From a virus: a DNA stretch of 38,431 bases. The translations under genes and the position numbers were made by a program. The notes under the pieces are model-generated. The model did no database searches and was not told where the DNA came from. It saw only the letters and a program-made list of their open reading frames with translations. Positions 1 to 14,569 of the stretch are shown one piece after another. Where the stretch lies: the IMG/VR virus record IMGVR_UViG_3300045988_147738, positions 1 to 38,431 of that record. One strand, written 5' to 3'. Numbering within the stretch: position 1 is the stretch's first letter; every line of letters starts with the position of its first letter.

Positions 1-74
1 AAATGATTATGGTAGAATGATGATATTGATAAAAGAAAATGATTATGGTAGAATGATGATATTGATAAAAGAAA
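1..74. repeat. 36-bp tandem direct repeat (two full copies and a partial third) containing TTGATA and TGGTAGAAT promoter-like hexamers
   Basis: aatgattatggtagaatgatgatattgataaaagaa is repeated back to back at positions 3-38 and 39-74. Confidence 0.8.
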
Positions 75-242
75 ATGATAGAAGTTTGGTGCCCCCGCTC
101 GGTACCAACTCATCACTCAATTTCATCATTATCGTCATCCTCTGAATTTTTCAAGATACCCTTTCCAAAAAACGTCGAGCCCAGGTATTCTAATCGCCAA
201 TTTCCCAAATAAAAAATACCTGGGCCGACACGTTAATCGAAA

Positions 243-617
243 TTAAATGCGAGAAATCCAGTCGTTGAGGATTTCATCTACGGTTTTGCCCTTCTTAATC
301 GCACCCTTAGAGTTCGTCTCAAAACGGAAACCGGGGAGCTCAATCTTGAAGTTGCCTGGGTCCTTGTAGAATTTAAGGAAACTGTCCATTACCTTAATGA
401 CATCCTCGCCCTTCAACTCTGCGCCCTTATAGCCGACATAGGCCGCATAGTCGTTGATAGCATCGGCAACCGCTTCCGCTCGGGCCATCTTTTCCTTGTC
501 CTTCTTCTGGTCAGCATATGCCTTAGTGGCGTCATTCAGCATTGCAGTCATTTCCTTAGCAATATCCTCAGCGCTCTCGCCATTCATTAAACGCGTCAGA
601 ATATCGTTCTTATCCAT
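243..617 (-). CDS. hypothetical protein (124 aa)
   Basis: Intact ORF with ATG start, TAA stop and an AAGAGG ribosome-binding site. Two tandem TTGACA/TTGACT-N17/18-TATAAT promoters lie at 640-715 on the minus strand. Confidence 0.6.
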   Translation of the reverse strand: MDKNDILTRLMNGESAEDIAKEMTAMLNDATKAYADQKKDKEKMARAEAVADAINDYAAYVGYKGAELKGEDVIKVMDSFLKFYKDPGNFKIELPGFRFETNSKGAIKKGKTVDEILNDWISRI

Positions 618-847
618 TAAAATAACCTCTTTTCATTTTGTATACATATATTATACAAAAAATTTTTTTAAAAGTCAAGCGAGAAAAAAAATGGTTTTTT
701 TTATCATTATAACATAAATTTTTTTTTATGTCAAACCGGGCGGCATATGGGTACCGAGCGGGGCTCGGGTTTTGGGAAAATATGGGTGCATATGAGGGTC
801 GCTAGAATCACGGAAAATTTTCCATATGGGGTGGGAGAATGGAAATT

Positions 848-919
848 CGGACCGCAGCGCCCGCGCTCGGCCCGTTGTACCTCCCCTTTTATTATACCAC
901 ACCGGGCCCGCGTTGTCAA
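848..919. promoter_or_regulatory. promoter-hairpin module copy 1 (minus-strand TTGACA-N17-TGGTATAAT followed by an imperfect GC hairpin)
   Basis: Reverse complement of 891-919 reads TTGACAacgcgggcccggtgtggTATAAT. Hairpin at 848-875. A bidirectional terminator sits immediately to the right at 941-961. Confidence 0.6.
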
Positions 920-940
920 TAGGCAAAATGAACAAAAATT

Positions 941-961
941 AAGGGTGGATTTCTCCACCCT
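941..961. terminator. intrinsic terminator hairpin GGGTGGA-ttt-TCCACCC, with a T-run on the minus strand
   Basis: Perfect inverted repeat followed on the minus strand by TTAATTTTTGTT. Confidence 0.6.
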
Positions 962-1170
962 TAACAGAAGTTGTCAAAAATGTCATCAGACACTTGGCAC
1001 TCATACCAGCCGAAATATTCCCGGCGTGAGCGGAGTTCGCCCTCGATTTCATCCTCGTCTATGTCGGGATTTTGTATGTGGAGATACTGGATGACCCAGT
1101 GCTCGCTCGCGCATACATTCTCGTCAGCGTTGAAGTAAAATTTAGGGGTCACGATTATTCCTCCTCCCAC
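961..1170 (-). CDS. small acidic hypothetical protein; the likely GTG start at 1152 gives about 63 aa
   Basis: ORF ends in TAA. GGGAGGAGG ribosome-binding site 7 nt upstream of the GTG at 1150-1152, overlapping the stop of the upstream HD gene, which suggests translational coupling. Confidence 0.5.
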   Translation of the reverse strand: MGGGIIVTPKFYFNADENVCASEHWVIQYLHIQNPDIDEDEIEGELRSRREYFGWYECQVSDDIFDNFC

Positions 1171-1766
1171 GGCAGTTCGGGCGAAATTTCGTCCAGTTCC
1201 GCCTTGTCGTTATAGTCGGCGTTGATTGCTGGAATGTCGATAAACGCTCGGCTTGCCACATAGTCAGCCATGTGTACCAGTCTGTCGATAGGAGTGAAAG
1301 GTCTGTCCGCCTTGTCGGTAGTCCACTGACCCATGTGAGACTTGATGGCTTGCGTCAACTCATAGGGGCAGTCGCTCTCGAAAAACACCATCCATGTGCG
1401 GCAAACTTGGTCAGCGGCAATCGCGCCGTGCTTGGGGTACAACTCCTTGTCGAACTCGTGTAAGCCATACTTGGCTGTATCGTGGAGCAGACAGGCAACT
1501 CTTGCGTAGTCCTTGCGCTCGTCAGTGAGATACGCCCACTGGCTCATGCGGAGCAATTCCTCACAAAACCACGCGACCGCCTTAGTGTGGCGCACCAAAC
1601 CGCCCTCGCCTTGGCTCATAGCCGGATGGAACTTGCCGGAAGAACTCGCGCCGATAGTCCAGAAATAGTCGGGAACAATACAGTCGAAGTAGTAGCGCAC
1701 GAATGAGCGCAAATCCTCAGACTGAATGAACTCGATTTCGTGGTCAAAAAACTGGCTCTTATTCAT
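1155..1766 (-). CDS. HD-domain metal-dependent phosphohydrolase
   Basis: Motifs HTKAVAWF, LLHDTAKY and HMADYVASR match the HD superfamily H..HD..D pattern. Start chosen at MNKSQFF because of a GGAGG ribosome-binding site; the track's longer ORF runs into the promoter module. Confidence 0.65.
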   Translation of the reverse strand: MNKSQFFDHEIEFIQSEDLRSFVRYYFDCIVPDYFWTIGASSSGKFHPAMSQGEGGLVRHTKAVAWFCEELLRMSQWAYLTDERKDYARVACLLHDTAKYGLHEFDKELYPKHGAIAADQVCRTWMVFFESDCPYELTQAIKSHMGQWTTDKADRPFTPIDRLVHMADYVASRAFIDIPAINADYNDKAELDEISPELPWEEE

Positions 1767-1889
1767 AGATGCCTCCGTGCTGTTGGTGGGTTCCAGCTCC
1801 CTCAGATTGTTTATAGTATAGCGCATTTCGGGACAAAATGCAATAGTCAATTTATACAAATTTTCACCGGAAAAATTGTTGAAAATGTG

Positions 1890-1962
1890 TATTGACAAAA
1901 ATGCCGGGCGCCACAATCGTGAACGCCCGACCCATTATACCACAGTCAGAGGGCGTTGTCAA
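1890..1962. promoter_or_regulatory. promoter-hairpin module copy 2
   Basis: Minus strand reads TTGACAacgccctctgactgtggTATAAT, then hairpin GGGCG-ttcacgattgtg-GCGCCCG. Near-identical to copy 7 at 11226. Confidence 0.65.
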
Positions 1963-1983
1963 TAGTCAAATTGAATAAAAAAA

Positions 1984-2537
1984 TTATACTAAATTTTTTA
2001 TCATTTGTAAGGTTTTATCATACCCATATTTTTCAAGTAAACGAGTGATTTCTTTATCAAAAGGTTTTCTATTTTCAAAATTTAATTTTATATTTTCTTC
2101 ATTTATTACCCATCTTAAATTTTCAAGTCTATTATCTGTTTTTATTCCATTGATGTGGTCAACAACTAAATTGTTCGCATTTATATTTGTTTGAAAAGTA
2201 TTTAATACAAGTCTATGAATTCTATATTTTTTCTTATTTGGTAAATTTAAATATAAATATCCATTATTTAATACCCCTTTATAAAATACACCATCTTTTT
2301 TAATACGCCCCATTGTAGATATTAAATAGTCTGGTAAATCATAACACTGTTTCCATTCTTCATCAGGTAAATCCTAGGTTTCATCTTTTATAATATTATA
2401 ATAATTAGTGTGATTACGTTTTTCTATAAATACTAATTCAATTCCACGTCTTTTACAAAAAGCGATAAAAATATTTTTATCTACTCGTGAAGTTGTTAAA
2501 TTATATTTTTCTATAATTTCTTTTGTTGATAACATTA
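1984..2537 (-). CDS. HNH homing endonuclease (HNH_3-type) with one in-frame TAG at 2376-2378; AT-rich insert
   Basis: C-terminal region YRIHRLVLNTF...NLVVDHINGIKTDNRLENLRWV is a canonical HNH motif. Reading through TAG joins it in frame to an upstream 56-aa HTH-like region and an EEWK...GRIKKDG motif, with an AAGGAGG ribosome-binding site before the ATG at 2537. About 25% GC inside a 50% GC region. Confidence 0.7.
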
Positions 2538-2570
2538 TAGAACCTCCTTTAATATTCTATTATATTTAAA

Positions 2571-2628
2571 AAAACACACAAAATCATTACCCTGTTTTGT
2601 CCTGGGTAATGATTTTGTGTGTTTTATT
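2571..2628. terminator. long perfect hairpin (19-bp stem) flanked by an A-run and a T-run; bidirectional terminator
   Basis: ACACACAAAATCATTACCC-tgttttgtcc-tGGGTAATGATTTTGTGTGT. Confidence 0.7.
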
Positions 2629-3022
2629 ATAGGGCGATTTGGTAAGTTCGACGAATGGTAATTTCAACAGATTTCGGCTTCACAGGACAGGCAAATCTGT
2701 CATTTCTCACAAACACGCCGTATCCCTTTTTCTGCCAGTTCTCACGATTTTTGTCCTCGTATCGCAAAGTGTTATACTTGGAGAGCGGTAGCGAAAAATC
2801 GTAAATAAATTCAGAATTGTGCGGTAAACGGTGAACGGCGGTCTTGCGGTAGTTTCTTGTGTGTTCCTGCTGTCTACGCTTTAAGTCGTTAGTCGTGCCT
2901 ATTTTCAGAATGTAGACACCATTTTCATCATAATAGTGTCCAACATACAAAAATTCCTTGTTTTTCACACTTTTTTCCTCATTTTCTGGGGAAAATGGGG
3001 GATTTCTCCCCCATTTTCTCAA
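2627..3022 (-). CDS. GIY-YIG (T5orf172-like) domain protein
   Basis: FLYVGHYYDENGVYILKIGTTNDLKRRQQEH fits the GIY...YIG...R...E nuclease motif. The start is uncertain: TTG at 3022 or a downstream GTG with a GAGGA ribosome-binding site. Confidence 0.5.
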   Translation of the reverse strand: MRKWGRNPPFSPENEEKSVKNKEFLYVGHYYDENGVYILKIGTTNDLKRRQQEHTRNYRKTAVHRLPHNSEFIYDFSLPLSKYNTLRYEDKNRENWQKKGYGVFVRNDRFACPVKPKSVEITIRRTYQIAL

Positions 3023-3417
3023 CTTTTCGGCTTGCGCTTCTGCACAAGGGTCAGTTCATAGGAATTTTCACCAACCGAAAATGCAATCTGTCTCTCTTTA
3101 TTAGTTATTTCCACATTTTCGCAGGCATTTTCGCTGTTTTCGGTCAAAAATGTTGCGAGTTCAGCGATAATGGACGCTTTCGTGGGATTTGCCTTGCGTT
3201 CCCTTGTGGTGAATTTGTATGCGGTGGGGGTCTTGCGTGTGCCAGTCTTAGCGAATTTCTGTGCGACTTTGAGCTGTTCTTTCGACAGGTCAAAATCCTG
3301 TGCCTTACCCTTGTCGATTTCTCGGTCAGAGTTCCACACGGCTTCCGCTTCATCGGCAGTCCAGCCCATTTTCGCCATAGCGTTTTTCAGCCATTCGGTT
3401 TTGGAGATTTCAGCCAT
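3019..3417 (-). CDS. hypothetical protein (132 aa), paralog of 5565-5921
   Basis: Shares KTPTAYKFTTRERKANPTKASII with RQPTAYKFAPRERKANLTKQGII in the paralog. TGA stop. Confidence 0.6.
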   Translation of the reverse strand: MAEISKTEWLKNAMAKMGWTADEAEAVWNSDREIDKGKAQDFDLSKEQLKVAQKFAKTGTRKTPTAYKFTTRERKANPTKASIIAELATFLTENSENACENVEITNKERQIAFSVGENSYELTLVQKRKPKS

Positions 3418-3478
3418 AAAACACCGCCTTTTCAGATTTTAGAGGAGAGAGGGGGAGAGGTTATCTCCCCCTCTTGTC

Positions 3479-3976
3479 TCACTTGGCGGTGAAATACGCC
3501 TTGCGCTTATCCTCGATACGGTCTGCCTGACCGTCCAGCACCATCTGACGCACCAGAGAAGAAACCTTCTGATTGGACGCATCGGCGATAGCGGGGACAG
3601 ACTTCATCAGAGCGGACACGGTGTACTTCTCGCCCTTGTGGGCGTCCAGAAACGCCTTGATGTCAGCCTTGATACCCTCGTTTGCCACCTGCATGGCGGT
3701 CGGCTTCTTGTCCACGGTGTTCTTGCGGTCGAGCAGTTCCAGCTCGTGGTTCAGGAAGCCCGCCACATCAGCACCGGAAACCTTGACAGTGGCATCACCC
3801 TTGGAAATGTCATAGGTGGCGTCCATATCCACCTTGGACAGAATGGCGGTGAAATAGTCGCGCTTGGTCAGACGAACAGAGGAAGTGGTGTTAGTCATAG
3901 TATCAACCCTTTCTGCGTTTTTAGGTGTCGCCCACCATATTGTTGTTTCCCTCTTGGAACATCTATATTCTAACAC
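3479..3976 (-). CDS. hypothetical protein (165 aa), paralog of 5973-6374
   Basis: Shares LLDRKNTVDKKPT and SNQKVSSLVRQMVLDGQADRIEDKRKAYF with the paralog. A GC hairpin at 3440-3472 separates it from the downstream gene, as in the other copy. Confidence 0.6.
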   Translation of the reverse strand: MLEYRCSKRETTIWWATPKNAERVDTMTNTTSSVRLTKRDYFTAILSKVDMDATYDISKGDATVKVSGADVAGFLNHELELLDRKNTVDKKPTAMQVANEGIKADIKAFLDAHKGEKYTVSALMKSVPAIADASNQKVSSLVRQMVLDGQADRIEDKRKAYFTAK

Positions 3977-4163
3977 ATATCCGAAGCCTTGTCAAGACTT
4001 TTTTTCGGATTTGTGGAATTTTTTTAAGGTACACGCCCCGCCGGGAGGTCTTACCCTCTCCCTTGGAACAATTATATATTACCACACCCTTGGGCAAATT
4101 ACAATAGTCAATACTCACAAAAAAATGGGATTTTCAACATCTAAAATTTGTGCAAAAAAACAC

Positions 4164-4259
4164 TTGACAAAATTTGTGCCACGTGGTATAATGGAAATTT
4201 CGGGCGCCACATCCGTGAGCGCCCGACTCATTTTAACACATTTGAGCGCATTTGTCAAT
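4164..4259. promoter_or_regulatory. promoter-hairpin module copy 3: convergent plus and minus consensus promoters flanking a GC hairpin
   Basis: Plus strand reads TTGACA(4164)-N17-TATAAT(4187). Hairpin GGGCGCC-acatccgtga-GCGCCCG at 4202-4225. Minus strand reads TTGACA(rc 4254-4259)-N17-TAAAAT. Confidence 0.7.
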
Positions 4260-4299
4260 AGGCAATTTGCACAAAAATAAACCAGCGTAGTTGGCTACT

Positions 4300-4625
4300 A
4301 CGCTGGTTCCCCTGTTGATACTCGCCAGCCGTCCGGACAGCCAGCCCACTTCTACACAGCAGACCTAATCAGACGGGCGCAATGCCCACATAGATGGTCT
4401 TTCTCGGCACGCGGTGAATGTGGTTAGAACTTCGTACCCAGTCCCAATTTCTAACGAGGGGTTCAAGATAGCGTTTGAGAAGAAACTGTCGAGGGGACAA
4501 ACACTCTGTTAAAATCCATCTTGGCCGGGGAATTAAATATAATCAATCATTAAACTATCTAATCAAACAATGATTGACTACTAAGGTGGTCGATACAATC
4601 GCCATTTCATTTTTCTCACCTCACA
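4300..4625 (-). ncRNA. candidate noncoding RNA or long leader: an ORF-free interval between a consensus minus-strand promoter and a terminator
   Basis: No ORF longer than 10 codons has a ribosome-binding site. A minus-strand promoter at 4631-4660 (reverse complement TTGACAaatcgccccgcctgtgcTATACT) and the minus terminator hairpin at 4283-4310 bracket it. The plus-strand promoter of module 3 also reads into this interval. Confidence 0.35.
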
Positions 4626-4668
4626 ATATTAGTATAGCACAGGCGGGGCGATTTGTCAAGAGTTTTTT

Positions 4669-5352
4669 TCAAAACTCTAACTCGTCCCGAACGCCATAGC
4701 CGGAGAAATCGAGGATAACAGGAGAAATGCCAATGTACCCAATGTTTGAGCCGTGGAGGTCGTTTATGTGATACTTCTTGACGAACTCACAGAGGGCGAT
4801 AACCTTGCGCTTACCGTGGAGGGAAACGGCGACTTTTGCCCACAATCCATCAAGGTTGCGCCCATAGCCATTTTGGTCTGCCTTGCGGAACTGCCGTTCA
4901 ATCTGATTAACTCGGCAATCAGGAACAGTCTTTGCGATACGGATAAGACGATTTTTCAGCCCATCCTCTTGCCAGCAGATTTTATGAGCACAGTTGGTGA
5001 TAATCTGTTGAGCGGTGAACGCAATCGCTTCGCCATCACGAGGAGAAACAATGTAGCCAGCCAACATAGTGGCGGGGAAAAAATCAGCGAGGTTTGCGTC
5101 TACGGCTTTCTGATACACAGCCACTTCGCGCTCTGCGTCCCGCGTCTCCATAGACCATTTGAGAACATAGCCCAGCTCAGGAAACACCAGACATTCCTTG
5201 GTCGCGCCGTTGCTGGTGACTATCTTGACATTAGGGTATTCGTTGTGGATAACGCGGCACAGACTGTCTGCCTGTCTGACCAGTCTCGGCTTTTCAGATA
5301 CCGCCTGCTGAATGGTCAGGATAAAATCCTGAACTCTCGGAAACTCCATCAT
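4669..5352 (-). CDS. putative protein-kinase-like (APH/ePK-fold) protein
   Basis: HINDLHGSNIGY...ILDFSG resembles a kinase catalytic loop (HxDLHxxN) followed by a DFG-like motif. GAAAGGAG ribosome-binding site. Weak assignment. Confidence 0.35.
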   Translation of the reverse strand: MMEFPRVQDFILTIQQAVSEKPRLVRQADSLCRVIHNEYPNVKIVTSNGATKECLVFPELGYVLKWSMETRDAEREVAVYQKAVDANLADFFPATMLAGYIVSPRDGEAIAFTAQQIITNCAHKICWQEDGLKNRLIRIAKTVPDCRVNQIERQFRKADQNGYGRNLDGLWAKVAVSLHGKRKVIALCEFVKKYHINDLHGSNIGYIGISPVILDFSGYGVRDELEF

Positions 5353-5429
5353 TCATCGCTCCTTTCAGTATCATCATTATAGCACATTACAGGAGAATTA
5401 CAATAGGCAAAATGCACAAAATTTTGCGG

Positions 5430-5523
5430 AAAAAATTTCTGAAATTGTATAATGTGCCGAAAACCGGGCGCCAGGACCGTAAGCGCCCGGCCAAATTATA
5501 CCACACGCGCTCGGATTTGTCAA
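5430..5523. promoter_or_regulatory. promoter-hairpin module copy 4
   Basis: Minus strand reads TTGACAaatccgagcgcgtgtggTATAAT, then hairpin GGGCGCC-aggaccgtaa-GCGCCCG. A plus-strand TATAAT lies at 5448. Confidence 0.65.
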
Positions 5524-5564
5524 TAGGCAAAATACACAAAAAAAATGAGGGAGATTTCTCTCCC

Positions 5565-5921
5565 TCACTTGCGCGGGCAACTAAGCACAACCTTATATTT
5601 TGTTCCATCAAGCGTGAATAAAAATTCGCGCTCCGCGTTGCTCACGTTCAGGTCAGTCGCGCCGTATGTGGTCAGTGTCTCGGTCAGCAAGGTGATAATG
5701 CCTTGCTTCGTAAGATTAGCCTTTCTTTCTCTTGGCGCGAACTTGTATGCGGTCGGCTGGCGTCCTACTCCACGCGCTTTCTTGCTTGCCTTTTCCTGTT
5801 CCTCGGTCAGCGGAAACGGATTGCCGCCCTTGTCGATGATAGCATCTTGAACAATAATGTCCTTTGCTTCGGCTTCGGTACAATCCAGCTTTCGCATGAG
5901 GTCGGCAACTCGGTCAGTCAT
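5565..5921 (-). CDS. hypothetical protein (118 aa), paralog of 3019-3417
   Basis: See the paralog. TGA stop. Confidence 0.6.
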   Translation of the reverse strand: MTDRVADLMRKLDCTEAEAKDIIVQDAIIDKGGNPFPLTEEQEKASKKARGVGRQPTAYKFAPRERKANLTKQGIITLLTETLTTYGATDLNVSNAEREFLFTLDGTKYKVVLSCPRK

Positions 5922-5972
5922 GCGGTACTCCTTTCAGGGTTAGGGTGGGGAGCAATCCCCACCCTTTGAGGT

Positions 5973-6374
5973 TTACGCGCTCACCTTGCGGAAGAACGCC
6001 TTGCGCTTGTCCTCCACGCGCTCCACCTGCTTATCCAGCACCATCTGCCGGACGAGGGAGGACAGCTTCTGATTGCTCATGTCCTTACAGACGGGGAACT
6101 CTTTGAGCATCTCGCTGATGGAATACAGCCGGTTGCTCTCCATAGCGGACAGGACAGAGGTCTTGATAACCTCATTCTCCTGCTGGGTCTTGGTGGGCTT
6201 CTTGTCCACGGTGTTCTTGCGGTCGAGCAGGTCGATTTCGTGGGTGATGAACTCCACCAGCTTGGGGTCAGCCTTGACCTCGGACAGCTTGAGCAGGGCG
6301 GTGAAATTGTCGCGCTTGGTGGGCTTACGGGTGGCGGTGTTAGTGTTAGCCATAGTATCAATTCCTTTCTCCAT
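5973..6374 (-). CDS. hypothetical protein (133 aa), paralog of 3479-3976
   Basis: See the paralog. Proximal promoter at 6399-6450 (reverse complement TTGACAatcccagcgcaagctgtTATAAT). A GC hairpin at 5936-5962 lies between the two genes of the cassette. Confidence 0.6.
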   Translation of the reverse strand: MEKGIDTMANTNTATRKPTKRDNFTALLKLSEVKADPKLVEFITHEIDLLDRKNTVDKKPTKTQQENEVIKTSVLSAMESNRLYSISEMLKEFPVCKDMSNQKLSSLVRQMVLDKQVERVEDKRKAFFRKVSA

Positions 6375-6454
6375 TTGGTTTTGAGGGCTTTACCCTCCTG
6401 ACATTATCTATTATAACAGCTTGCGCTGGGATTGTCAAGACTTTTTTTCAAAAT

Positions 6455-6900
6455 TCTTGATTTTTTTTAATAGTGTCAACAGGGGAACGTCCCACAAGTA
6501 TTCACAACGACTTACAACCTCGCCTGACGAATAAGGTGTTGCTTGTTGGTTCAACGTTTCCATGCGCATGGACGAACTGACCAATCCACTCACTTTTCGT
6601 TCATCGTTTGGGATTACTGCGCTGGTATAGGGCTTACTTCCTTTACTCTCTCACGGTTCGCGACCCGTGGATTTCTTGGGTGGGGCTGTTCCCCTCTTGA
6701 CATTATCAATTATAGCACAGGTGCTGGGGATTGTCAAGAGGGAATTTGCGGGTCAGTTACCGAGTTATCACACCCGCCAGCGTGGCTCTTGCGAGGCGAC
6801 TTGCTGTTCCCTCTTGACATTATGTAGTATAGCACAGGTGGGTATGGATTACAATAGGCAAACTATACAAGTTTCGGGAAAAATAAATAAAAAAATTTAT
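6455..6900 (-). ncRNA. ORF-free interval driven by two tandem minus-strand promoters; candidate noncoding RNA(s)
   Basis: Promoters at 6715-6745 (reverse complement TTGACAatccccagcacctgtgcTATAAT, embedded in the palindrome CCTCTTGACA-N28-TGTCAAGAGG) and 6810-6845. No ORF in 6470-6700 has a ribosome-binding site. The 16-mer GTTCCCCTGTTGAYAC is shared with the interval at 4307. Confidence 0.3.
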
Positions 6901-6912
6901 GTAAAAAAACTC

Positions 6913-7007
6913 TTGACAAAATTGCTGGCGGGGTGTATAATGGTGAATTCCGGCCGAGACGCGCGAAATCGGCCGGCCATTATACCACACCCAGGCACAT
7001 TTGTCAA
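6913..7007. promoter_or_regulatory. promoter-hairpin module copy 5
   Basis: Plus strand reads TTGACAaaattgctggcggggtgTATAAT. Hairpin GGCCG-agacgcgcgaaat-CGGCC. Minus strand reads TTGACAaatgtgcctgggtgtggTATAAT. Confidence 0.7.
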
Positions 7008-7022
7008 TAGGTAAAAATGCAC

Positions 7023-7056
7023 AAAAAATGAGGGGAAAATCCCCTCATTTTTTTAG
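7023..7056. terminator. bidirectional intrinsic terminator
   Basis: aaaaaATGAGGGGAaaaTCCCCTCATttttttt. Confidence 0.7.
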
Positions 7057-7586
7057 TCCATCTGACAAGCGAGAAATGTGTCCCGCTTTTCGTTCAGTTT
7101 GACGATTTCGCCCGCCAGCGCATCAGCCCTCATAGCCAACAGACGCCCATAGCCCTTGCGCCAGTTCAGCATACCATCGGGATTGACCGTGTAAATGAGC
7201 TTCTCCTTTTCCACGGTCTTGGTGTCCTTGCACTCCGTGCGGAAATCCTGTCCATTCATAGCCAGCAGAGCGTTCTGCGCCACTCCCGGCAAACGCATCC
7301 AGTCATACTCGGTCATCAGAGCGTTGCCATCCTTGTCAATCATCCAGATTTCCGCTTCCCACGGGTCAATCTTGATTTCCTTGGTGCTTTTCTCGGTGCG
7401 TACCACCTTGATGATACCCTCGTCCCGCAGGAACGACAGGGAATTGTAGGTGTACCGCCGGTAGTCGTGCTTTGCCTTGGAGAAGTCCTCGGAAGTGAAC
7501 TCCTTGTTTCCGAATAGGTCTACCAGCCACTTGTAGGTCTTGACCGTGCGGTTGAAATTGTGAACATTGGCATAGCGAGCTTTCAT
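7053..7586 (-). CDS. hypothetical protein (about 177 aa)
   Basis: Start taken at MKARYANVHNF with an AAAAGGAG ribosome-binding site. Upstream promoter reads TTGACAacgcccccattccatgcTATAAT, with its -35 inside the terminator loop at 7660-7690. Confidence 0.55.
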   Translation of the reverse strand: MKARYANVHNFNRTVKTYKWLVDLFGNKEFTSEDFSKAKHDYRRYTYNSLSFLRDEGIIKVVRTEKSTKEIKIDPWEAEIWMIDKDGNALMTEYDWMRLPGVAQNALLAMNGQDFRTECKDTKTVEKEKLIYTVNPDGMLNWRKGYGRLLAMRADALAGEIVKLNEKRDTFLACQMD

Positions 7587-7699
7587 AGTTTTTTCTCCTT
7601 TTCTGTTGGTGGGGCTTACCATCGTTTCCCCTACCTTGAATTTGTAATGTTATTATAGCATGGAATGGGGGCGTTGTCAACCCCCATTCCAAACTTTTT

Positions 7700-7912
7700 T
7701 TACGGGGTGTCGTGCTTGCGGTATTCAGTCAGGTCAGGGTCGCCAATCCATTCCGAAAAGTCAACCCAGTAGTCGAATTCATGGAGAATGGTAGTTTCCT
7801 CGCCCTCGAATACTCCACCACAGCAGGCACAAATGACATTTCCGTCATCAGTCTGAATACCCGCCTGAACGCCATCTGAATGGTCGCTCTTAAACAGAAC
7901 TTGCTTCGGCAT
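7700..7912 (-). CDS. small Cys-containing hypothetical protein (70 aa)
   Basis: AAGGAGG ribosome-binding site. Promoter at 7935-7975 (reverse complement TTGACAgtccctttctcatgtggTATAAT). Confidence 0.55.
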   Translation of the reverse strand: MPKQVLFKSDHSDGVQAGIQTDDGNVICACCGGVFEGEETTILHEFDYWVDFSEWIGDPDLTEYRKHDTP

Positions 7913-7979
7913 TTCGCTTACCTCCTTATTTCAGTATAGTCATTATACCACATGAGAAAGGGACTGTCAAGCCCCAATC

Positions 7980-8636
7980 TCAAAACTTGGGAAAACATTT
8001 TACCTCAAAGGGTGCGTCCCATGCGTGGACGTTCTTGGTGTATCGCTTGTGCATCTTCTGACAGGCAAGGAAAATTTCCATTTCCTGCATAGCGTCAGAC
8101 AGGGCGGTGTGTTCTTCCTCAAAGTCAGGATTGCCGTGGAGATAGCCATACACCGCTTCGACAGAGGTTGCACAGGTCTTGCCATTCTTGGAACGCTTGC
8201 CATGCTCTCGGCAATATTCCGCATAGGACTTCTTGTGGGTGATAGTTTCCAGTGCCATAAGATACAGGTCGATGAACTCGAAAGTGTCCAGCAGGTCGCG
8301 GAAACAGGTCTTGCAGAAGTCAAAACCGGAATTGTATGCCATCACATAGCGAACGCCGTAATGGTCGCACAGGTTTTTGATTACCTCATAGGCTTCGCGC
8401 TCCGTGGCGATAGCGGAGATTTCACCAGCTTTGAGCCGTTCGGCATACTTGGGAAAATTCTTCTTGGCATAGCCATCGGTGGCGATTTCGTCATAATGCT
8501 CCATCACCAGCAGGGAAGTGGTGGCAAGGATTTCGCCCTTGCGGTCGTGGATAATCGCGCCCACATTATACATTCCCGTGGGGTGAGCCGCACCGCCTAC
8601 CGTTTCAGTGTCCAGCGTGCAGTAGATATTTTTCAT
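7980..8636 (-). CDS. DEDDh-family (DnaQ-like) 3'-5' exonuclease
   Basis: Exo I motif CTLDTETVGG, Exo II motif YNSGFDF and Exo III motif HTALSDAMQEMEIF. AAAAGGAG ribosome-binding site. Confidence 0.65.
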   Translation of the reverse strand: MKNIYCTLDTETVGGAAHPTGMYNVGAIIHDRKGEILATTSLLVMEHYDEIATDGYAKKNFPKYAERLKAGEISAIATEREAYEVIKNLCDHYGVRYVMAYNSGFDFCKTCFRDLLDTFEFIDLYLMALETITHKKSYAEYCREHGKRSKNGKTCATSVEAVYGYLHGNPDFEEEHTALSDAMQEMEIFLACQKMHKRYTKNVHAWDAPFEVKCFPKF

Positions 8637-8748
8637 TGTTCATTCTCCTTTTCTCTTGGTTGGGCTTACCATCGTGTCCCATACCTTAATTACATTACAT
8701 ATTATAGCAAATAGGGGCGAGATTGTCAACCCCTATTTGCTATTTTTT

Positions 8749-9194
8749 TTACAGGTTGCGCAGAATTTCCATAAGCAGGTCGGCATTGTATGCCATATTA
8801 TGGGTGTTTGCCGTCCACTCGTTGAGGTTGCGCTGTTCATCATCGAATAGAATAGACGCGGGGCAGGTGGCGCAGGTGGACTTGGGGACGCCATAGGGGA
8901 CAATATGGATTTCGTCCCACTGAACGCTGGGGAGATGCTTTGCCAGCCATTCTCGCTTGACCTCGGCTACTTCGGCATTGAACTTATCCGTTCCGCTCTT
9001 GGACAGCCAACTGATGATGCCGATATTGTAGCCACGCGCCTGTAAGCGGTTCAGATAGCGGGCGAGGGTGGAGAAGTGGACAAGCGGGCGGGCGTCCGCA
9101 TATACGCTCGTGTCCGCGGCTTCCAGCTTTGCCAGCCAGTTAGGGTCGCCATACAGGTCGGTGATAGTCCCGTCCATGTCCAGATAGATAGTCA
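8749..9194 (-). CDS. HAD-superfamily hydrolase-like protein (possibly a nucleotidase)
   Basis: N-terminal IYLDMDGTITDL matches HAD motif I (DxDGT). Start taken at MTIYLDMDGT with an AAAGGAAG ribosome-binding site. Proximal promoter at 9225-9262 (reverse complement TTGACAaatcgcgttttatcctgTATAAT). Confidence 0.5.
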
Positions 9195-9344
9195 TAGTAT
9201 CAACTTCCTTTCTTGATTGTAATGCTATTATACAGGATAAAACGCGATTTGTCAACAGTTTTTTCAATTCTGCTCTTGGTCATTTCGCACAAATTTTCGG
9301 GATGCGCGCTTGGGCAAATTTGTTCAATTTACCTATTGACAAAA

Positions 9345-9430
9345 TTGCTGGCAGGGTGTATAATGGAAATTTCGAGCGCCAGGGCCGTGGGCGCTCGGCC
9401 GAGTATACCACAAATAGGGGCGTTTGTCAA
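9345..9430. promoter_or_regulatory. promoter-hairpin module copy 6
   Basis: Plus strand reads TTGACAaaattgctggcagggtgTATAAT. Hairpin GCGCC-agggccgtgg-GCGC. Minus strand reads TTGACA-N17-TATACT. Confidence 0.7.
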
Positions 9431-9442
9431 TAGGTAAAATGA

Positions 9443-9475
9443 ACAAAAAAAATCTCCCAAATTTGGGAGATTTTT
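9443..9475. terminator. bidirectional terminator
   Basis: aaaaaaaaTCTCCCAaatttGGGAGAttttt. Confidence 0.7.
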
Positions 9476-9481
9476 CATTTA

Positions 9482-9696
9482 TTAACTCTTGACAGTGACG
9501 CGGAAGATGGAGCGCAGGATTGCGACAATGAGCCAAACCACCAGCACCAGTTTCCACGAGAACGCGATAACGAAAGAGCCGATGGACACGATGCCAATGG
9601 CGGGGAGAAGCCAGCAGAGAAGCCAGACCAGTCCAGCAGAGAACAGGAAGTCGATGCCAAGGCATACCAGTACCAAAAACAGAGCAGTAAACATTT
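9482..9696 (-). CDS. small membrane protein (about 71 aa, 2 predicted transmembrane helices)
   Basis: Hydrophobic MFTALFLVLVCLGIDFLFSAGLVWLLCWLL... AAGGAGGA ribosome-binding site before the internal ATG. Confidence 0.5.
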
Positions 9697-9707
9697 GTTG
9701 TTCCTCC

Positions 9708-9857
9708 TTAATAAATTTGTTCGCCGTTGTGGTAGCGTTCGTATCTCGCTTCAAGGAAGTCGAAAATGAACTCGAAGTCGTCCGCGTCCGCGGGGTCTAC
9801 GAACGTCTTTTCAAGGATTTCGCCAGTGTGGTCATTGAAAACTTTAATCATTTCCAT
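9708..9857 (-). CDS. small acidic hypothetical protein (about 49 aa)
   Basis: AGGGAGGA ribosome-binding site before MEMIKVFNDHTGEIL. Confidence 0.45.
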   Translation of the reverse strand: MEMIKVFNDHTGEILEKTFVDPADADDFEFIFDFLEARYERYHNGEQIY

Positions 9858-9923
9858 TTTGTTGTCCTCCCTTATTTGATGATACCATTCTAACACAGAG
9901 GGGCTGATTTGTCAACCCCTATT

Positions 9924-10394
9924 TTACAAATTTTTGCTTTCTGCCACGAAATATTTTGCGCCATATTGCGCCACAATGTCTTTGACCTTTTTGCTCTCGG
10001 CTTGCGTGGCACAATAGAAATTGAATAGCGTGTGTTTATTGCTAATCTCAATGTATGAATGGGGAATGTCTCGCAGGTCAAAATCCACAGCGGCACGATA
10101 CTTTGTGGGGACAGTCATTTCAATCTTCCACAATTTTTCCTTGCGCGCCAGCTCTTCCACCCACTTAACCGCCAGTACACCGATGAAATTACAGGCGGCG
10201 GTGATGCTCATTTTTGCCAGTGTAGAAACGCCGTCAATGTTGGTTAGGATAATGACATAGGAATAGAAGCCATAGGTCAGCGCATTGATACCGGCGGCTA
10301 CCCACTTATTGCCTTTGACAGTCAGAATGGATTTGATGGTGGACAGCACCACATTGATAGCGGTACAGACAATGAATAGGATAATTGCGTTCAT
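9924..10394 (-). CDS. membrane protein: N-terminal 3 transmembrane helices plus a C-terminal soluble domain (about 157 aa)
   Basis: Start at MNAIILFIV with an AAAGGAG ribosome-binding site. Promoter TTGACA-N17-TATTAT at 10415-10455 on the minus strand. Confidence 0.5.
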   Translation of the reverse strand: MNAIILFIVCTAINVVLSTIKSILTVKGNKWVAAGINALTYGFYSYVIILTNIDGVSTLAKMSITAACNFIGVLAVKWVEELARKEKLWKIEMTVPTKYRAAVDFDLRDIPHSYIEISNKHTLFNFYCATQAESKKVKDIVAQYGAKYFVAESKNL

Positions 10395-10536
10395 AATCAT
10401 CACTCCTTTTTCAGTATAATAATAATAACACATTTAATTGAAAATGTCAAGAAAAATTTTTGTCGTAGTTAAATTCTCACAAGATTAGATTTTTGTTCCG
10501 TGTAGTTAGTCAGGACTAAACCCAACAAGAGGGGCG

Positions 10537-10908
10537 TTAATGCCCCTCCGTCAGTTTATTATACATACTCCACAGCGTATCACAGGAATTGTTTGTGTTT
10601 TCAGCCATCCATACAATTTGTTCATCAGTCGGCAGGTATTTATCATTTTGAAAACCAAACCATCTATCACAGGACTGATACGCCTTATACTCGTCCTCTG
10701 TCAGCTTGCCACGCAACCACCAGTCCCAGCGGATAGAACTTATCAGAGTATACGCGCACGCGCCCGCGATAGTCAGGGTCAGGATGGCGACAGCCCCGTA
10801 CAGCACCAGCGTGGACTTTATCATACCATACACCAGCAGACCGAAACCGCACACAATGAGGAAATTGCACACCCATTTTTTGAGCGTCAGTTTCTGAAAA
10901 TCAGACAT
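10537..10908 (-). CDS. membrane protein (123 aa, 2 predicted transmembrane helices)
   Basis: AAGGAG ribosome-binding site. The stop codon lies inside the hairpin GAGGGGCgttaaTGCCCCTC. Confidence 0.5.
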   Translation of the reverse strand: MSDFQKLTLKKWVCNFLIVCGFGLLVYGMIKSTLVLYGAVAILTLTIAGACAYTLISSIRWDWWLRGKLTEDEYKAYQSCDRWFGFQNDKYLPTDEQIVWMAENTNNSCDTLWSMYNKLTEGH

Positions 10909-11119
10909 TTTCTCTACTCCTTAACATATTGTCGCAAAATTCATTGGAGAACTTCTCAGCGAAATCATCATCATAGGCGCGATTGGCAATGACTTCCATA
11001 ACCGTACTGATGCCGGACATAAAGTAGGGATTGCCATTGATGGTGTCATACCGCCCTTGGAACATAGGGCATTCACGCAGGTCTGCGAAAACCATCTGAT
11101 ACGCTTTCTTCAACTCCAT
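10901..11119 (-). CDS. hypothetical protein (72 aa)
   Basis: AAGGAGG ribosome-binding site. Overlaps the downstream gene start by 8 nt. Promoter at 11140-11200 (reverse complement TTGACTtctatcccgtaatacggTATAAT). Confidence 0.5.
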   Translation of the reverse strand: MELKKAYQMVFADLRECPMFQGRYDTINGNPYFMSGISTVMEVIANRAYDDDFAEKFSNEFCDNMLRSRENV

Positions 11120-11225
11120 TGTTCTTACCTCCTTGTTTCAGTATAGCCATTATACCGTATTACGGGATAGAAGTCAATCGTCAAAATGCACAAAATTGCG
11201 GTGAAAAATTTGTGAAGTATACCTA

Positions 11226-11275
11226 TTGACAAAAATGCCGGGCGCCACAATCGTGAGCGCGCGGCCGAAAATGTC
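11226..11275. promoter_or_regulatory. promoter-hairpin module copy 7 (degenerate, no clear -10)
   Basis: TTGACAaaaatgccGGGCGCCacaatcgtgaGCGCgcggcc is nearly identical to copy 2. Confidence 0.5.
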
Positions 11276-11331
11276 AAGTGGAAAATTATACAAAAATTGG
11301 GCTGGATTTTTGTTCATCCAGCCCAAATGAT

Positions 11332-11538
11332 TTACTTTCCTGATTTCGGCACGAAACCTCGGCAGAATTGACGACACCAGGTGCGCTCGTTCTTTCGCTT
11401 CATACATTTACTCTCACCCATACTGTTCATTACCTTGCCGTGGTTATAACCCCAGTATTCACAGTTGGAGCATCTTACCTTATCAGGCTCTACACAATAG
11501 CGGTCAGCCAGTTCAGTTCTGATTGCAAAAGTAGTCAT
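11332..11538 (-). CDS. Cys-rich small protein (68 aa), possible zinc-binding protein
   Basis: CxxC...C...C spacing. AAGGAGGA ribosome-binding site. Promoter reverse complement TTAACAaaccttttagggtgtgtTATAAT at 11560-11600. Confidence 0.5.
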   Translation of the reverse strand: MTTFAIRTELADRYCVEPDKVRCSNCEYWGYNHGKVMNSMGESKCMKRKNERTWCRQFCRGFVPKSGK

Positions 11539-11601
11539 TCGGGGCGTCCTCCTTCATTTGATGTATTTATTATAACACACCCTAAAAGGTTTGTTAATAA
11601 T

Positions 11602-11636
11602 TAAAATGAAAAATGTGGGATTTCTCCCACATTTTT
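11602..11636. terminator. bidirectional terminator
   Basis: aaaaATGTGGGAtttcTCCCACATttttttt. Confidence 0.7.
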
Positions 11637-11867
11637 TTATTTATTTTCTAACCGCATTTTGTCAGACCCGATAAGCGCAGCCAGCAGGTTTGAGGTATCA
11701 CGGACTTGGCTCATAGAATACTCTTCGCCAATGTTGGAAATAGCGTATTCTTGTTCGTAGTCATACATCAAATCAAAAAGGTGAGAAATAACTTCGCGGG
11801 CGTCTTGGAGTTTGTCCTTTTCCTCTTGGGTGAGTTGAACCTGAACGTTTGAGGTAATGATGTTCAT
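11637..11867 (-). CDS. small acidic protein, member 1 of a tandem paralog triplet (76 aa)
   Basis: AAAAGGAGA ribosome-binding site. Pattern I..V.V.LT.EE...L.DA..V/I..L.DLMYD.E.EY is shared with the next two genes. Confidence 0.5.
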   Translation of the reverse strand: MNIITSNVQVQLTQEEKDKLQDAREVISHLFDLMYDYEQEYAISNIGEEYSMSQVRDTSNLLAALIGSDKMRLENK

Positions 11868-11882
11868 TTGTTTTATCTCCTT

Positions 11883-12113
11883 TTATTTACTACGGATTTC
11901 CACTTTTTCAGTGGGGGCAAGCATTTGAAGCACATTAGCCGTAAGCGCGACATCAACTCTGTCATAGCCATTCCCGCAAGTATCGCTTACATACTCGCAG
12001 TCATTATCGGCGATGATGTCATACAATTCATTGAGAATGTCATAGGCGTCGCGCAGGGTTTTCCGCTCCTTCTCTGTTATTTTGACATAGATGGGGGCTT
12101 TAATAACTTCCAT
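11883..12113 (-). CDS. small acidic protein, paralog 2 (about 76 aa)
   Basis: MEVIKAPIYVKITEKERKTLRDAYDILNELYDIIADNDCEYV aligns with MEFIEAPIYVKLSDEERNSLNEVYTILNDLVNAAEENDCEYV in paralog 3. GAGGGAGG ribosome-binding site. Confidence 0.55.
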   Translation of the reverse strand: MEVIKAPIYVKITEKERKTLRDAYDILNELYDIIADNDCEYVSDTCGNGYDRVDVALTANVLQMLAPTEKVEIRSK

Positions 12114-12127
12114 TTTGTTTCCCTCCC

Positions 12128-12358
12128 TCAATTACTAATTTCTAGTTTTTCAGCAGGTGCGAACACTCGGCAGATTTCAGCAGCTTGGCTGAGGTCAAAC
12201 CGCCCGTAGCCATCGCCAGTCAACGGATTGCCCACATACTCGCAGTCATTCTCTTCGGCGGCGTTTACAAGGTCATTCAGAATGGTATAAACTTCATTGA
12301 GTGAATTGCGCTCTTCATCACTCAACTTGACATAGATAGGGGCTTCAATAAATTCCAT
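12128..12358 (-). CDS. small acidic protein, paralog 3 (about 76 aa)
   Basis: See paralog 2. AAAGGAGA ribosome-binding site. Promoter -35 inside the hairpin at 12395-12425. Confidence 0.55.
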   Translation of the reverse strand: MEFIEAPIYVKLSDEERNSLNEVYTILNDLVNAAEENDCEYVGNPLTGDGYGRFDLSQAAEICRVFAPAEKLEISN

Positions 12359-12429
12359 TTTGGCATTCTCCTTTCTCTTGGTATTATCTATTATAGCAGA
12401 AATGGGGCTTGTTGTCAAGCCCCAATTTT

Positions 12430-12753: not shown

Positions 12754-12754
12754 A

Positions 12755-12931: not shown

Positions 12932-13049
12932 TGTGAATGACCTCCTTTAATTGATGGTATAAGTATAGCACACCTACTGGGCGTTGTCAACCGTCAAATT
13001 GCACAAATTTTGGGATAAAAAATTGTTGAAAATACCGAACACAAAACGC

Positions 13050-13145: not shown

Positions 13146-13223
13146 TAGGCAAAATCACCAAAATTTTCAACCGAATTATGGGCATAATGCCATATAAAAA
13201 AAACAAGGGCTTTCGCCCTTGTC

Positions 13224-14562: not shown

Positions 14563-14569
14563 TTCCTCC

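What the first reader, a model, noticed from the sequence alone, without database searches (positions are those of the whole stretch)
3019..6374. Two-gene cassette present in two diverged copies, each with a conserved intergenic GC hairpin
Genes 3479-3976 and 3019-3417 are paralogous to 5973-6374 and 5565-5921 respectively, with about 35-45% identity and long identical motifs (LLDRKNTVDKKPT; SNQK.SSLVRQMVLD.Q..R.EDKRKA.F; PTAYKF..RERKAN.TK..II). Both pairs keep a stable hairpin between the two genes (3440-3472; 5936-5962) and each sits downstream of a promoter-hairpin module. Retention of a duplicated, diverging gene pair of unknown function in an early region could indicate specificity variants, such as anti-defence or host-takeover factors with different targets.
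Basis: seen in the sequence. Interest (0 to 1): 0.55.

Follow-up and report, generated by a model that had tools for sequence, protein, structure and literature searches.

The report
Duplicated early phage gene pair
Two diverged copies of an uncharacterised early gene pair (a predicted winged-helix nucleic-acid binder plus a small basic partner with no known fold) sit in a large gut phage that reads TAG as a codon in its late genes; the pair is almost always linked in hundreds of related phages and is reshuffled by recombination, but what it does is still unknown.

Summary
A1 (3479-3898, minus strand) and A2 (5973-6353) are 46% identical (E 7e-40). B1 (3019-3417) and B2 (5565-5921) are 35% identical (E 4e-18). 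Both alignments run full length and are not low-complexity. Each A-B spacer holds a 10-11 bp GC hairpin of about -22 kcal/mol with no U tract.

The host genome is a roughly 195-kb, TAG-recoded myophage related to Herelleviridae.

- **B** is a basic two-domain protein with no fold, Pfam or PHROG match. Its family has 1195 clusters at 50% identity.
- **Linkage:** 149 of 153 distinct B genes have an A gene directly upstream, and all 56 loci found through A contain B.
- **Evolution:** B1 and B2 are old, separate lineages. A copies are homogenised by gene conversion. One relative carries a single hybrid cassette, and near-identical phages carry different A1 N-domain inserts.
- **Hairpin:** it is conserved in position in 76 of 82 distinct spacers. 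In 31 of them a promoter follows it, as in the PeSL elements of T4-type phages.

Most likely A and B are an early-expressed, nucleic-acid-binding pair acting together. This is inferred. An anti-defence role is untested.

The parts
3967..3995 (-). Promoter of cassette 1 (TTGACA, 17 nt, TAGAAT, with TG before the -10)
   Evidence: Consensus scan, 11 of 12 matches. The same promoter is conserved in front of the A1 orthologues in L001 and L010-L015.
3479..3898 (-). A1, 139 aa, pI 9.05. Helical N-domain with a 14-residue insertion relative to A2 within DMDATYDISKGDATVKVSGADVAG, the conserved linker LLDRKNTVDKKPT, and a C-terminal winged helix.
3702..3736 (-). 35-nt tract identical to 6196-6230. It encodes LLDRKNTVDKK and is the gene-conversion and crossover site between the A copies.
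   Evidence: Longest identical run between A1 and A2; 11 codons are identical including their synonymous sites. The crossover of the hybrid cassette in L128 falls in this shared stretch.
3448..3474 (-). Intercistronic GC hairpin of cassette 1 (11 bp stem, no U tract)
   Evidence: RNA fold -22.4 kcal/mol, z -2.5. A hairpin occupies the same position in 76 of 82 distinct A-B spacers.
3019..3417 (-). B1, 132 aa, pI 8.9. N-terminal helices, a conserved low-confidence basic linker (PTAYKFTTRERKANPTK), and a C-terminal alpha-beta-beta-beta domain.
   Evidence: 35% identical to B2. AlphaFold2 model pLDDT 82. No significant fold match. Orthologues are 43-69% identical across the clade.
2992..3017 (-). 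Terminator of cassette 1 (AAAATGGGGGATTTCTCCCCCATTTT)
   Evidence: Fold -20.5 kcal/mol, z -4.3. Member of repeat family D20.
6410..6438 (-). Promoter of cassette 2 (TTGACA, 17 nt, TATAAT)
   Evidence: 12 of 12 consensus matches.
5973..6353 (-). A2, 126 aa, pI 9.6. Same architecture as A1 but without the N-domain insert.
   Evidence: Orthologues of 126 aa at 98% identity sit in 194-198-kb contigs.
6196..6230 (-). Copy-2 counterpart of the 35-nt identical tract
5942..5965 (-). Intercistronic GC hairpin of cassette 2 (10 bp stem, no U tract)
   Evidence: RNA fold -22.2 kcal/mol, z -3.1.
5565..5921 (-). B2, 118 aa, pI 8.9. B2-type paralogue.
   Evidence: HMM score 129 bits. B2-type orthologues are 36-50% identical in relatives and lie upstream of the B1-type cassette wherever both are present.
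5543..5570 (-). Terminator of cassette 2 (12 bp stem followed by U8)
   Evidence: -18.2 kcal/mol, z -5.1.
4669..5352 (-). 227-aa gene of unknown function lying between the cassettes. It is not part of the duplicated unit.
   Evidence: No Pfam, PHROG, NCBIfam or PADLOC match. In relative L010 the two cassettes are only about 400 nt apart, too little room for this gene, which is therefore inferred absent there.
4279..4659 (-). Promoter (4659-4631), then about 345 nt with no ORF over 43 aa, then a strong terminator (4309-4279). A candidate non-coding RNA unit that appears to travel with the 227-aa gene.
   Evidence: MFE z -3.0; no Rfam match; 87-97% conserved in 7 close relatives, no match in L010.

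Best explanation
Each cassette is a small early operon of a large lytic phage of gut Firmicutes. The phage is related to Herelleviridae and reads TAG as a sense codon in its late genes.

Proposed sequence of events:
1. Host RNA polymerase starts at a consensus sigma-70 promoter and transcribes A, then B.
2. The GC hairpin just after the A stop codon has no U tract. It most likely acts as a weak terminator or a 3'-end stabiliser, so more A message than B message accumulates.
3. A canonical terminator closes the unit.

The proteins:
- A binds nucleic acid, most probably DNA, through a C-terminal winged helix whose recognition helix and wing are almost invariant. Its helical N-domain carries a swappable insert.
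- B is a basic two-domain protein of unknown fold that works with A, either as a partner or as a modulator.
- B1 and B2 are two old functional variants. The A copies are kept alike by gene conversion.

Origin: the duplication, and the copy number of 1 to 3 seen across relatives, come from homologous recombination between the repeated regulatory modules and between the A genes themselves.

Shown here: paralogy, gene order, hairpins, promoters, the predicted fold of A, and the recombination products. Inferred: nucleic-acid binding, an A-B partnership, the role of the hairpin, and early timing.
For: - **Paralogy:**
- **Expression signals:** promoters and terminators. The early region 1-18000 holds 34 promoters matching at least 11 of 12 consensus positions.
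- **Conserved binding surface:** S98, R102, R112, E114 and K116-K118 are invariant.
- **Charge:** all four proteins have pI 8.9-9.6.
- **Linkage:** 149 distinct B genes have A within 400 nt upstream, against 4 without. All 56 loci found through A contain B.
- **Hairpin:** 76 of 82 distinct spacers fold at -12 kcal/mol or better (median -24), with unrelated stem sequences. Only 12 have a T-rich tail, and 31 have a promoter after the hairpin.
- **B lineages and concerted evolution of A:** one search shows the two B lines. Within a genome, A copies have a median identity of 67% and B copies 38%, while A orthologues between genomes are mostly 30-60% identical (domain-wise identities; within-genome values).
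- **Recombination:** a 35-nt identical tract and the single hybrid cassette in L128.
- **Phage type:** TerL is 52% identical to Enterococcus Herelleviridae phages. TAG read-through in late genes is shown.
Against: - No binding site for A was identified, and I found no palindromic operator near the cassette promoters.
- No member of the A family reaches a Pfam gathering threshold. The best is 23.3 bits against a cut-off of 23.5.
- In 31 of 82 relatives B has its own promoter, so co-transcription is not universal.
- Swapping the A1 N-domain leaves B1 at 95-98% identity, so that domain probably does not contact B.
- Early timing is inferred only from promoter type and strand.
Confidence: 0.45

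Rival explanations
1. A and B are host-takeover or anti-defence effectors that act on host proteins. In this reading the winged helix of A serves as a protein-binding module. The swappable N-domain insert of A and the two B types would then track variable host targets in an arms race.
For: - The genes are small, sit in the early region and are driven by very strong promoters, like the SPO1 host-takeover genes (PMC6873191).
- Near-identical phages carry different A1 N-domain inserts.
- Copy number varies from 1 to 3.
Against: - The pair is present in every related locus examined. Known anti-defence genes are usually sporadic (my general knowledge).
- The recognition helix and the basic wing are invariant, and the proteins are basic, which is more typical of nucleic-acid binding.
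- There is no match to any defence-related or known takeover family.
Confidence: 0.25
2. A is an abundant architectural DNA-binding protein that coats or marks phage DNA, comparable in role to SPO1 TF1, or it is a replication-origin binding protein. B would be its loader or modulator. Several copies would serve gene dosage.
For: - There are several A copies per genome, including 33 A genes with no adjacent B, and they are kept similar by gene conversion. That pattern fits selection for dosage of a single activity.
- The promoters and ribosome-binding leaders are very strong.
- The proteins are basic.
Against: - There is no similarity to HU/TF1 or to known replication initiators.
- The hypervariable N-domain insert is hard to explain for a purely architectural protein.
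- B1 and B2 have stayed distinct for a long time, which argues against simple dosage.
Confidence: 0.12
3. The pair is a toxin-antitoxin-like or otherwise selfish addiction module, with A as the DNA-binding antitoxin and B as the toxin, duplicated as a mobile cassette.
For: - The gene order is a DNA-binding protein followed by a small partner of similar size.
- Homing-endonuclease genes lie next to cassette 1, consistent with a mobile neighbourhood.
Against: - B matches no toxin family or toxin fold.
- The genes are separated by 51-61 nt with a hairpin, and often by a separate promoter for B. Typical toxin-antitoxin operons are tightly coupled (my general knowledge).
- The pair is found only on contigs that look like phage. 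Every hit in the genome collection is on a metagenome-assembled-genome contig, and none is in an isolate genome. There are no plasmid hits.
- A genes commonly occur without an adjacent B, but B almost never occurs without A.
Confidence: 0.04

Closest known systems
PeSL elements (promoter-early stem-loops) of T4-type phages (Arbiol et al. 2010, PMC2839356; Comeau et al. 2014, PMC4122927)
   Same: - A G-run/C-run stem-loop sits directly upstream of a near-consensus sigma-70 promoter, followed by a Shine-Dalgarno sequence and the start codon. This is exactly the layout of the A-B spacer in 31 of 82 relatives.
- The same layout is repeated many times through the window's early region.
- The elements are associated with insertions, deletions and exchanges between close relatives.
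- 'Half' elements that keep only the stem-loop are described for T4-type phages and match the two A-B spacers in the window.
   Different: - The phage lineage is different: a Herelleviridae-like phage of Firmicutes, not a T4-type phage.
- The one crossover that could be mapped here lies inside the A coding sequence, in the conserved 35-nt tract, not in the regulatory element.
- The window's own A-B spacers have no promoter.
[quoted passage not shown]
   Same: - A cluster of small early genes arranged in short operons.
- Each operon has strong consensus promoters and ribosome-binding sites.
- The phage is a large myovirus of Firmicutes, and its TerL is related to Herelleviridae phages.
- The cluster lies close to one contig end in L001.
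   Different: - No sequence similarity to any SPO1 takeover protein was detected; PHROG and Pfam searches were empty.
- Location in a terminal redundancy is not shown.
- No host-shutoff activity has been tested.
Winged-helix transcription regulators (ArsR, PadR, MarR and Fur classes; Mnd1 HTH)
   Same: - The C-terminal 70 residues of A have the H1-S1-H2-H3-wing topology.
- There are recurrent sub-threshold sequence matches to these families.
   Different: - The winged helix is at the C-terminus, after a roughly 50-residue helical hairpin and a conserved KKPT linker. That is not the domain order of ArsR, PadR or MarR proteins.
- No family threshold is reached.
- No ligand-sensing or dimerisation helix follows the wing.
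- DNA binding is untested.
T4 MotA-AsiA and similar two-protein early-to-middle transcription switches (analogy from my own knowledge)
   Same: An early-expressed DNA-binding protein plus a small partner, in a phage whose early genes use host sigma-70-type promoters. This would be a natural role for an A-B pair.
   Different: - There is no sequence or fold similarity.
- MotA binds DNA through a 'double-wing' domain and AsiA is all-helical, whereas B has an alpha-beta-beta-beta domain.
- No MotA-box-like motif was found.
- MotA and AsiA are single-copy genes.

Membership tests
Winged-helix (wHTH) DNA-binding superfamily (protein A) | Three-helix core with a beta-hairpin wing (H1-S1-H2-H3-W1) | tested here: met
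Winged-helix (wHTH) DNA-binding superfamily (protein A) | Sequence-profile match above a curated family threshold | tested here: not met
   The best match is Mnd1 HTH at 23.3 bits against a cut-off of 23.5. TrmB, MarR_2 and Penicillinase_R are all below threshold. The window copies score E 0.05 at best or nothing.
Winged-helix (wHTH) DNA-binding superfamily (protein A) | Binds DNA through the recognition helix and the wing | not testable with these tools
   Only indirect support: invariant S98, R102, R112 and K116-K118 and pI 9.0-9.6.
PeSL-type promoter/stem-loop cassettes | Stem-loop immediately upstream of a sigma-70-like early promoter, followed by a Shine-Dalgarno sequence and the start codon | tested here: inconclusive
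   Met in 31 of 82 distinct A-B spacers of relatives, and in other intergenic regions of the window, such as repeat family D7 at 7652, 8701 and 9887. Not met in the window's own two A-B spacers, which keep only the stem-loop.
PeSL-type promoter/stem-loop cassettes | Repeated in variable early regions and lying next to insertions, deletions or exchanges between close relatives | tested here: met
   Ten or more repeated promoter modules. The 227-aa gene and the RNA unit are present in the window but inferred absent from L010. L128 has a single hybrid cassette. Homing-endonuclease genes are present or absent between relatives.
PeSL-type promoter/stem-loop cassettes | Occurs in T4-type myoviruses | tested here: not met
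   The closest TerL relatives are Enterococcus and Geobacillus Herelleviridae-like phages and phAss-1.
SPO1-type host-takeover genes | Small early genes with strong consensus promoters and ribosome-binding sites | tested here: met
   Promoters matching 11-12 of 12 consensus positions precede both cassettes. The conserved leader GAAAGGnnTTGATACTATG is present.
SPO1-type host-takeover genes | Homology to SPO1 gp37-gp60 | tested here: not met
   No PHROG or Pfam match. tblastn against 50,697 phage records finds only one unannotated faecal fragment for A and nothing for B.
SPO1-type host-takeover genes | Shuts off or redirects host processes | not testable with these tools
   This needs expression and infection experiments.
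Type II toxin-antitoxin module | The toxin belongs to a recognised toxin fold or family | tested here: not met
Type II toxin-antitoxin module | Tightly coupled bicistron found on chromosomes and plasmids | tested here: not met
   The spacers are 51-61 nt with a hairpin, and B often has its own promoter. There are no plasmid hits. Hits in the genome collection are all on metagenome-assembled-genome contigs, many of phage-like size.
eL38-like alpha/beta fold (C-domain of B) | Significant sequence or structure similarity to ribosomal protein eL38 | tested here: inconclusive

The most novel reading that the evidence does not exclude
A and B form a two-protein nucleic-acid-binding machine specific to this large clade of gut Firmicutes phages. 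The invariant winged helix of A would recognise a fixed DNA or RNA target. The recombination-swapped N-domain insert of A, together with the two ancient B types, would supply exchangeable specificity, for example towards different host factors or different promoter classes. The conserved 35-nt linker tract would serve as a built-in crossover point for shuffling domains. If B's weak resemblance to ribosomal protein eL38 reflects real RNA or ribosome binding, the pair could even connect early gene expression to translation in a phage that later switches to reading TAG as a codon.
Probability: 0.15. Interest if true: 0.65.

Novelty: new variant of a known kind. Interest (0 to 1): 0.4.

Why it matters
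- **Scale.** The B family has 1195 clusters at 50% identity, none annotated, and its partner A family is equally undescribed. Together they are a near-universal early gene pair in a big, uncultured group of 100-200-kb gut phages, some of which use an alternative genetic code.
- **A target for experiments.** Early genes of such phages are where host takeover and the switch to later gene expression are decided. A strictly linked winged-helix protein plus partner is a concrete candidate to test.
- **Recombination caught in the act.** Close relatives show tandem duplication, gene conversion, a single hybrid cassette and swapping of a domain insert. This extends the idea of shuffling through repeated regulatory cassettes, known from T4-type phages, to a Herelleviridae-like lineage.
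- **Limit.** Function is not established, so the present value is descriptive.

Tried and rejected
**Family and structure searches**
- Pfam, PHROG, NCBIfam and PADLOC scans of all four proteins and the 227-aa gene gave nothing at or above threshold.
- PDB sequence searches with single proteins and with three family profiles gave nothing for A and only sub-threshold eL38 matches for B.
- BFVD returned only one uncharacterised homologue. The afdb50 library was not available.
- A profile-profile comparison shows A and B are unrelated to each other.

**Searches of annotated collections**
- blastn and tblastn against GenBank phages and plasmids found no annotated relative.
- Cluster look-ups returned no names.
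- Walking outward from a divergent A copy reached only 'predicted transcriptional regulator' labels and winged-helix Pfam tags.
- The representative search for B found no fusions to known domains; all hits are 87-164 aa.

**Regulatory elements**
- I looked for an operator in 200 upstream regions and saw only promoter elements, a shared leader and small 5'-UTR hairpins.
- The leader GAAAGGnnTTGATACTATG is not specific to A. It also precedes the nucleotidase-like (NT5C-like) gene at 9193.

**The region between the cassettes**
- The blastn hit of 4295-4436 to phAss-1 does not hold up as a conserved RNA. The phAss-1 segment is a promoter/hairpin module, and the CDS annotated there looks spurious.
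- Rfam finds nothing in the window or in 4230-4700.

**Readings dropped**
- The toxin-antitoxin and defence-system readings were rejected for the reasons given in the membership table.

Full report
**1. Checking the observation**

On the minus strand the window carries two gene pairs. The upstream genes are 46% identical over their full length: 63 of 138 residues, BLASTP E 7e-40. The downstream genes are 35% identical: 43 of 123 residues, E 4e-18. I call the upstream genes A1 and A2 and the downstream genes B1 and B2.

The quoted motifs are all present. The similarity is not low-complexity, and HMMs built from each family find exactly these two copies in the window.

Two gene starts need correction:
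- The GTG at 3976 lies upstream of the -10 box of a TTGACA-17-TAGAAT promoter at 3995-3967.
- Both A genes are preceded by the same leader, GAAAGGnnTTGATACTATG.
- So A1 is 3479-3898 (139 aa) and A2 is 5973-6353 (126 aa). The A2 length agrees with the 126-aa orthologues.

The intercistronic hairpins are at 3448-3474 (11 bp) and 5942-5965 (10 bp). Each folds at about -22 kcal/mol, and neither has a U tract on the mRNA strand. Each cassette has its own near-consensus promoter, at 3995-3967 and 6438-6410, and ends in a canonical terminator, at 2992-3017 and 5543-5570.

**2. The genome**

On the plus strand from 18075 to the end of the window, ORFs tile the sequence only if TAG is read as a codon. 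The TerL-like ORF has 11 in-frame TAG codons and the tape-measure-like ORF has 32. The minus-strand early genes, including A and B, contain none.

TerL translated with TAG as Gln is 52% identical to Enterococcus phages VRE9_4, H1 and EF1, 50% to Geobacillus virus E3 and 44% to the TAG-recoded gut phage phAss-1 (PMC10607447). Nearly identical cassettes lie in human-gut metagenome contigs of 194-201 kb.

The first 18 kb of the window holds 34 promoters that match at least 11 of 12 consensus positions. They are mostly on the minus strand, and many are embedded in repeated modules. This resembles the organisation of the SPO1 host-takeover region (PMC6873191).

**3. The proteins**

Neither protein matches Pfam, PHROGs, NCBIfam, PADLOC or PDB sequences at significance.

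*Protein A.* The AlphaFold2 model of A2 (pLDDT 81) has these parts:
- a helical hairpin, residues 13-48;
- the conserved linker LLDRKNTVDKKPT;
- a canonical winged helix, residues 55-123.

*Protein B.* The model (pLDDT 82, pTM 0.39) has N-terminal helices, a low-confidence basic linker carrying the conserved PTxYKF..RxRKxNxTK motif, and a small alpha-beta-beta-beta domain.
- An exhaustive profile search finds 1195 clusters at 50% identity, all short stand-alone proteins with no fusions.
- A deeper profile weakly matches ribosomal protein eL38 (E 0.04). I treat this as a lead only.

A and B are unrelated to each other. All four proteins are basic, with pI 8.9-9.6.

**4. Linkage**

I collected 126 related loci from IMG/VR, from metagenome-assembled genomes (mostly binned as Clostridia) and from metagenome contigs.
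- Among them, 149 distinct B genes have an A gene within 400 nt upstream on the same strand. Only 4 do not, and one of those is a frameshifted copy.
- 33 A genes have no adjacent B.
- To remove ascertainment bias I fetched 56 further loci through A. Every one contains B.
- Loci carry between one and three A copies and between one and three B copies.

The pair is therefore a conserved unit of this phage clade, not a sporadic accessory.

**5. How the copies evolve**

B1-type and B2-type genes are distinct orthologue lines. The B1-type copy lies downstream of the B2-type copy wherever both are present, as in the window. It is 43-69% identical to B1 and about 30-40% to B2, and the reverse holds for the upstream copy.

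A behaves differently:
- Within a genome, the A copies have a median identity of 67% against 38% for the B copies. Between genomes, A orthologues are mostly 30-60% identical by domain. This is the signature of concerted evolution.
- In the window, A1 and A2 share a 35-nt identical tract (3702-3736 and 6196-6230) that encodes LLDRKNTVDKK. All 11 codons are identical, including their synonymous sites.
- Database proteins include reciprocal chimeras, with the N-half of A2 joined to the C-half of A1 and the reverse.
- The 199-kb relative L128 has a single cassette. Its promoter, leader and N-half match cassette 2 (93% over 345 nt). Its C-half and B gene match cassette 1 (92% over 751 nt). The two matches overlap in the shared tract.
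- In L010 the cassettes are only about 400 nt apart, effectively in tandem. In the window they are separated by an inserted 227-aa gene and a promoter-to-terminator unit with no ORF.
- Phages with 93-99% identical A1 C-domains and 95-98% identical B1 carry unrelated N-domain inserts, for example DMDATYDISKGDATVKVSG against GEFKFPISQRIGTSEDFETVYVDIS. The insert therefore varies independently of B.

**6. The hairpin**

A stable hairpin directly follows the A stop codon in 76 of 82 distinct spacers. The median energy is -24 kcal/mol and the median z is about -5. The stem sequences are unrelated, which argues for selection on the structure.

Only 12 spacers have a T-rich tail. In 31, the hairpin is followed by TTGACA-17-TATAAT and a ribosome-binding site for B. 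That is the anatomy of the PeSL elements of T4-type phages: a G-run/C-run stem-loop, then an early promoter, then a Shine-Dalgarno sequence (PMC2839356, PMC4122927). The window's two spacers are 'half' elements that have lost the promoter.

The most economical reading is that the hairpin is the generic intergenic stem-loop of this early region. It would act as a weak terminator or a 3'-end stabiliser that sets the A:B ratio, and as a patch of homology for recombination. None of these roles was tested.

**7. Interpretation**

The best-supported model is an early operon encoding a winged-helix nucleic-acid-binding protein (A) and an obligate partner or modulator (B). There are two long-lived B variants, and the A copies are kept alike by gene conversion.

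Timing, nucleic-acid binding and the A-B interaction are all inferred.

An anti-defence role has no positive evidence and sits poorly with the near-universal presence of the pair. A toxin-antitoxin reading is rejected; the reasons are in the membership table.

**8. Verdict**

This is a real, non-trivial feature.
- The regulatory architecture is a variant of a known kind: shuffling of early genes by repeated promoter/stem-loop cassettes.
- Protein A is a new, unclassified winged-helix family.
- Protein B is a large family with no recognisable fold.
- Function is unknown.

Interest is moderate. The strict A-to-B linkage, the scale of the families and the recombination intermediates caught among close relatives make it a good experimental target, but nothing found so far is mechanistically surprising.

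Noticed in passing
window 18075-38431, plus strand: The late structural genes (TerL 20377-22128, portal-like 22496-24169, tape-measure-like 34865-38431 and others) are open only if TAG is read as a codon, with up to 32 in-frame TAG codons per gene. The minus-strand early genes contain none. No suppressor tRNA is present in this window.
   Followed up: partly
window 4279-4659, minus strand: A promoter (4659-4631), then about 345 nt with no ORF over 43 aa, then a strong terminator (4309-4279). The fold has z -3.0 and there is no Rfam match. The unit is 87-97% conserved in seven close relatives. It has no match in L010, where the spacing also leaves no room for the neighbouring 227-aa gene. This is a candidate non-coding RNA carried as an insertion between the two cassettes.
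   Followed up: partly
locus L128 6851-7845 (199-kb relative): A single hybrid A-B cassette: the promoter and N-half match cassette 2, and the C-half and B gene match cassette 1. It is a direct recombination product between the two copies.
   Followed up: yes
window 1984-2313 and 2627-3022, minus strand: An HNH_3 homing-endonuclease gene and a weak T5orf172/GIY-YIG-like gene lie just downstream of B1. They are missing from the near-identical contig L001, so they look like recent mobile insertions.
   Followed up: partly
window 4164-4192, 6913-6941 and 9336-9364, plus strand: Perfect 12-of-12 sigma-70 promoters on the plus strand lie inside the repeated modules. They face the minus-strand early promoters across a GC hairpin (GGGCGC...GCGCCC). 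This could mean antisense or convergent transcription, or a 5' stem-loop on the early transcripts.
   Followed up: no
window 11640-12448, minus strand: Three tandem small paralogous ORFs (11640-11882, 11886-12131 and 12131-12448), 28-46% identical. They are another duplicated early gene family.
   Followed up: no
5' UTRs of A genes in the window (3899-3966, 6354-6409) and in many loci: Small hairpins recur in the leaders (GGGTnGCGACC or GAC-AAGGACA-GTC types), and the leader GAAAGGnnTTGATACTATG is highly conserved. In the loci, 92 of 116 occurrences of that leader are at A starts. It also precedes the nucleotidase-like (NT5C-like) gene at 9193.
   Followed up: partly
window 7581-7637 and 8631-8687: An 88% identical stretch of 57 nt covers the 5' UTR and start region of two unrelated early genes (the 189-aa ORF and the exonuclease-like ORF). 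This shows regulatory modules being shared between genes.
   Followed up: no
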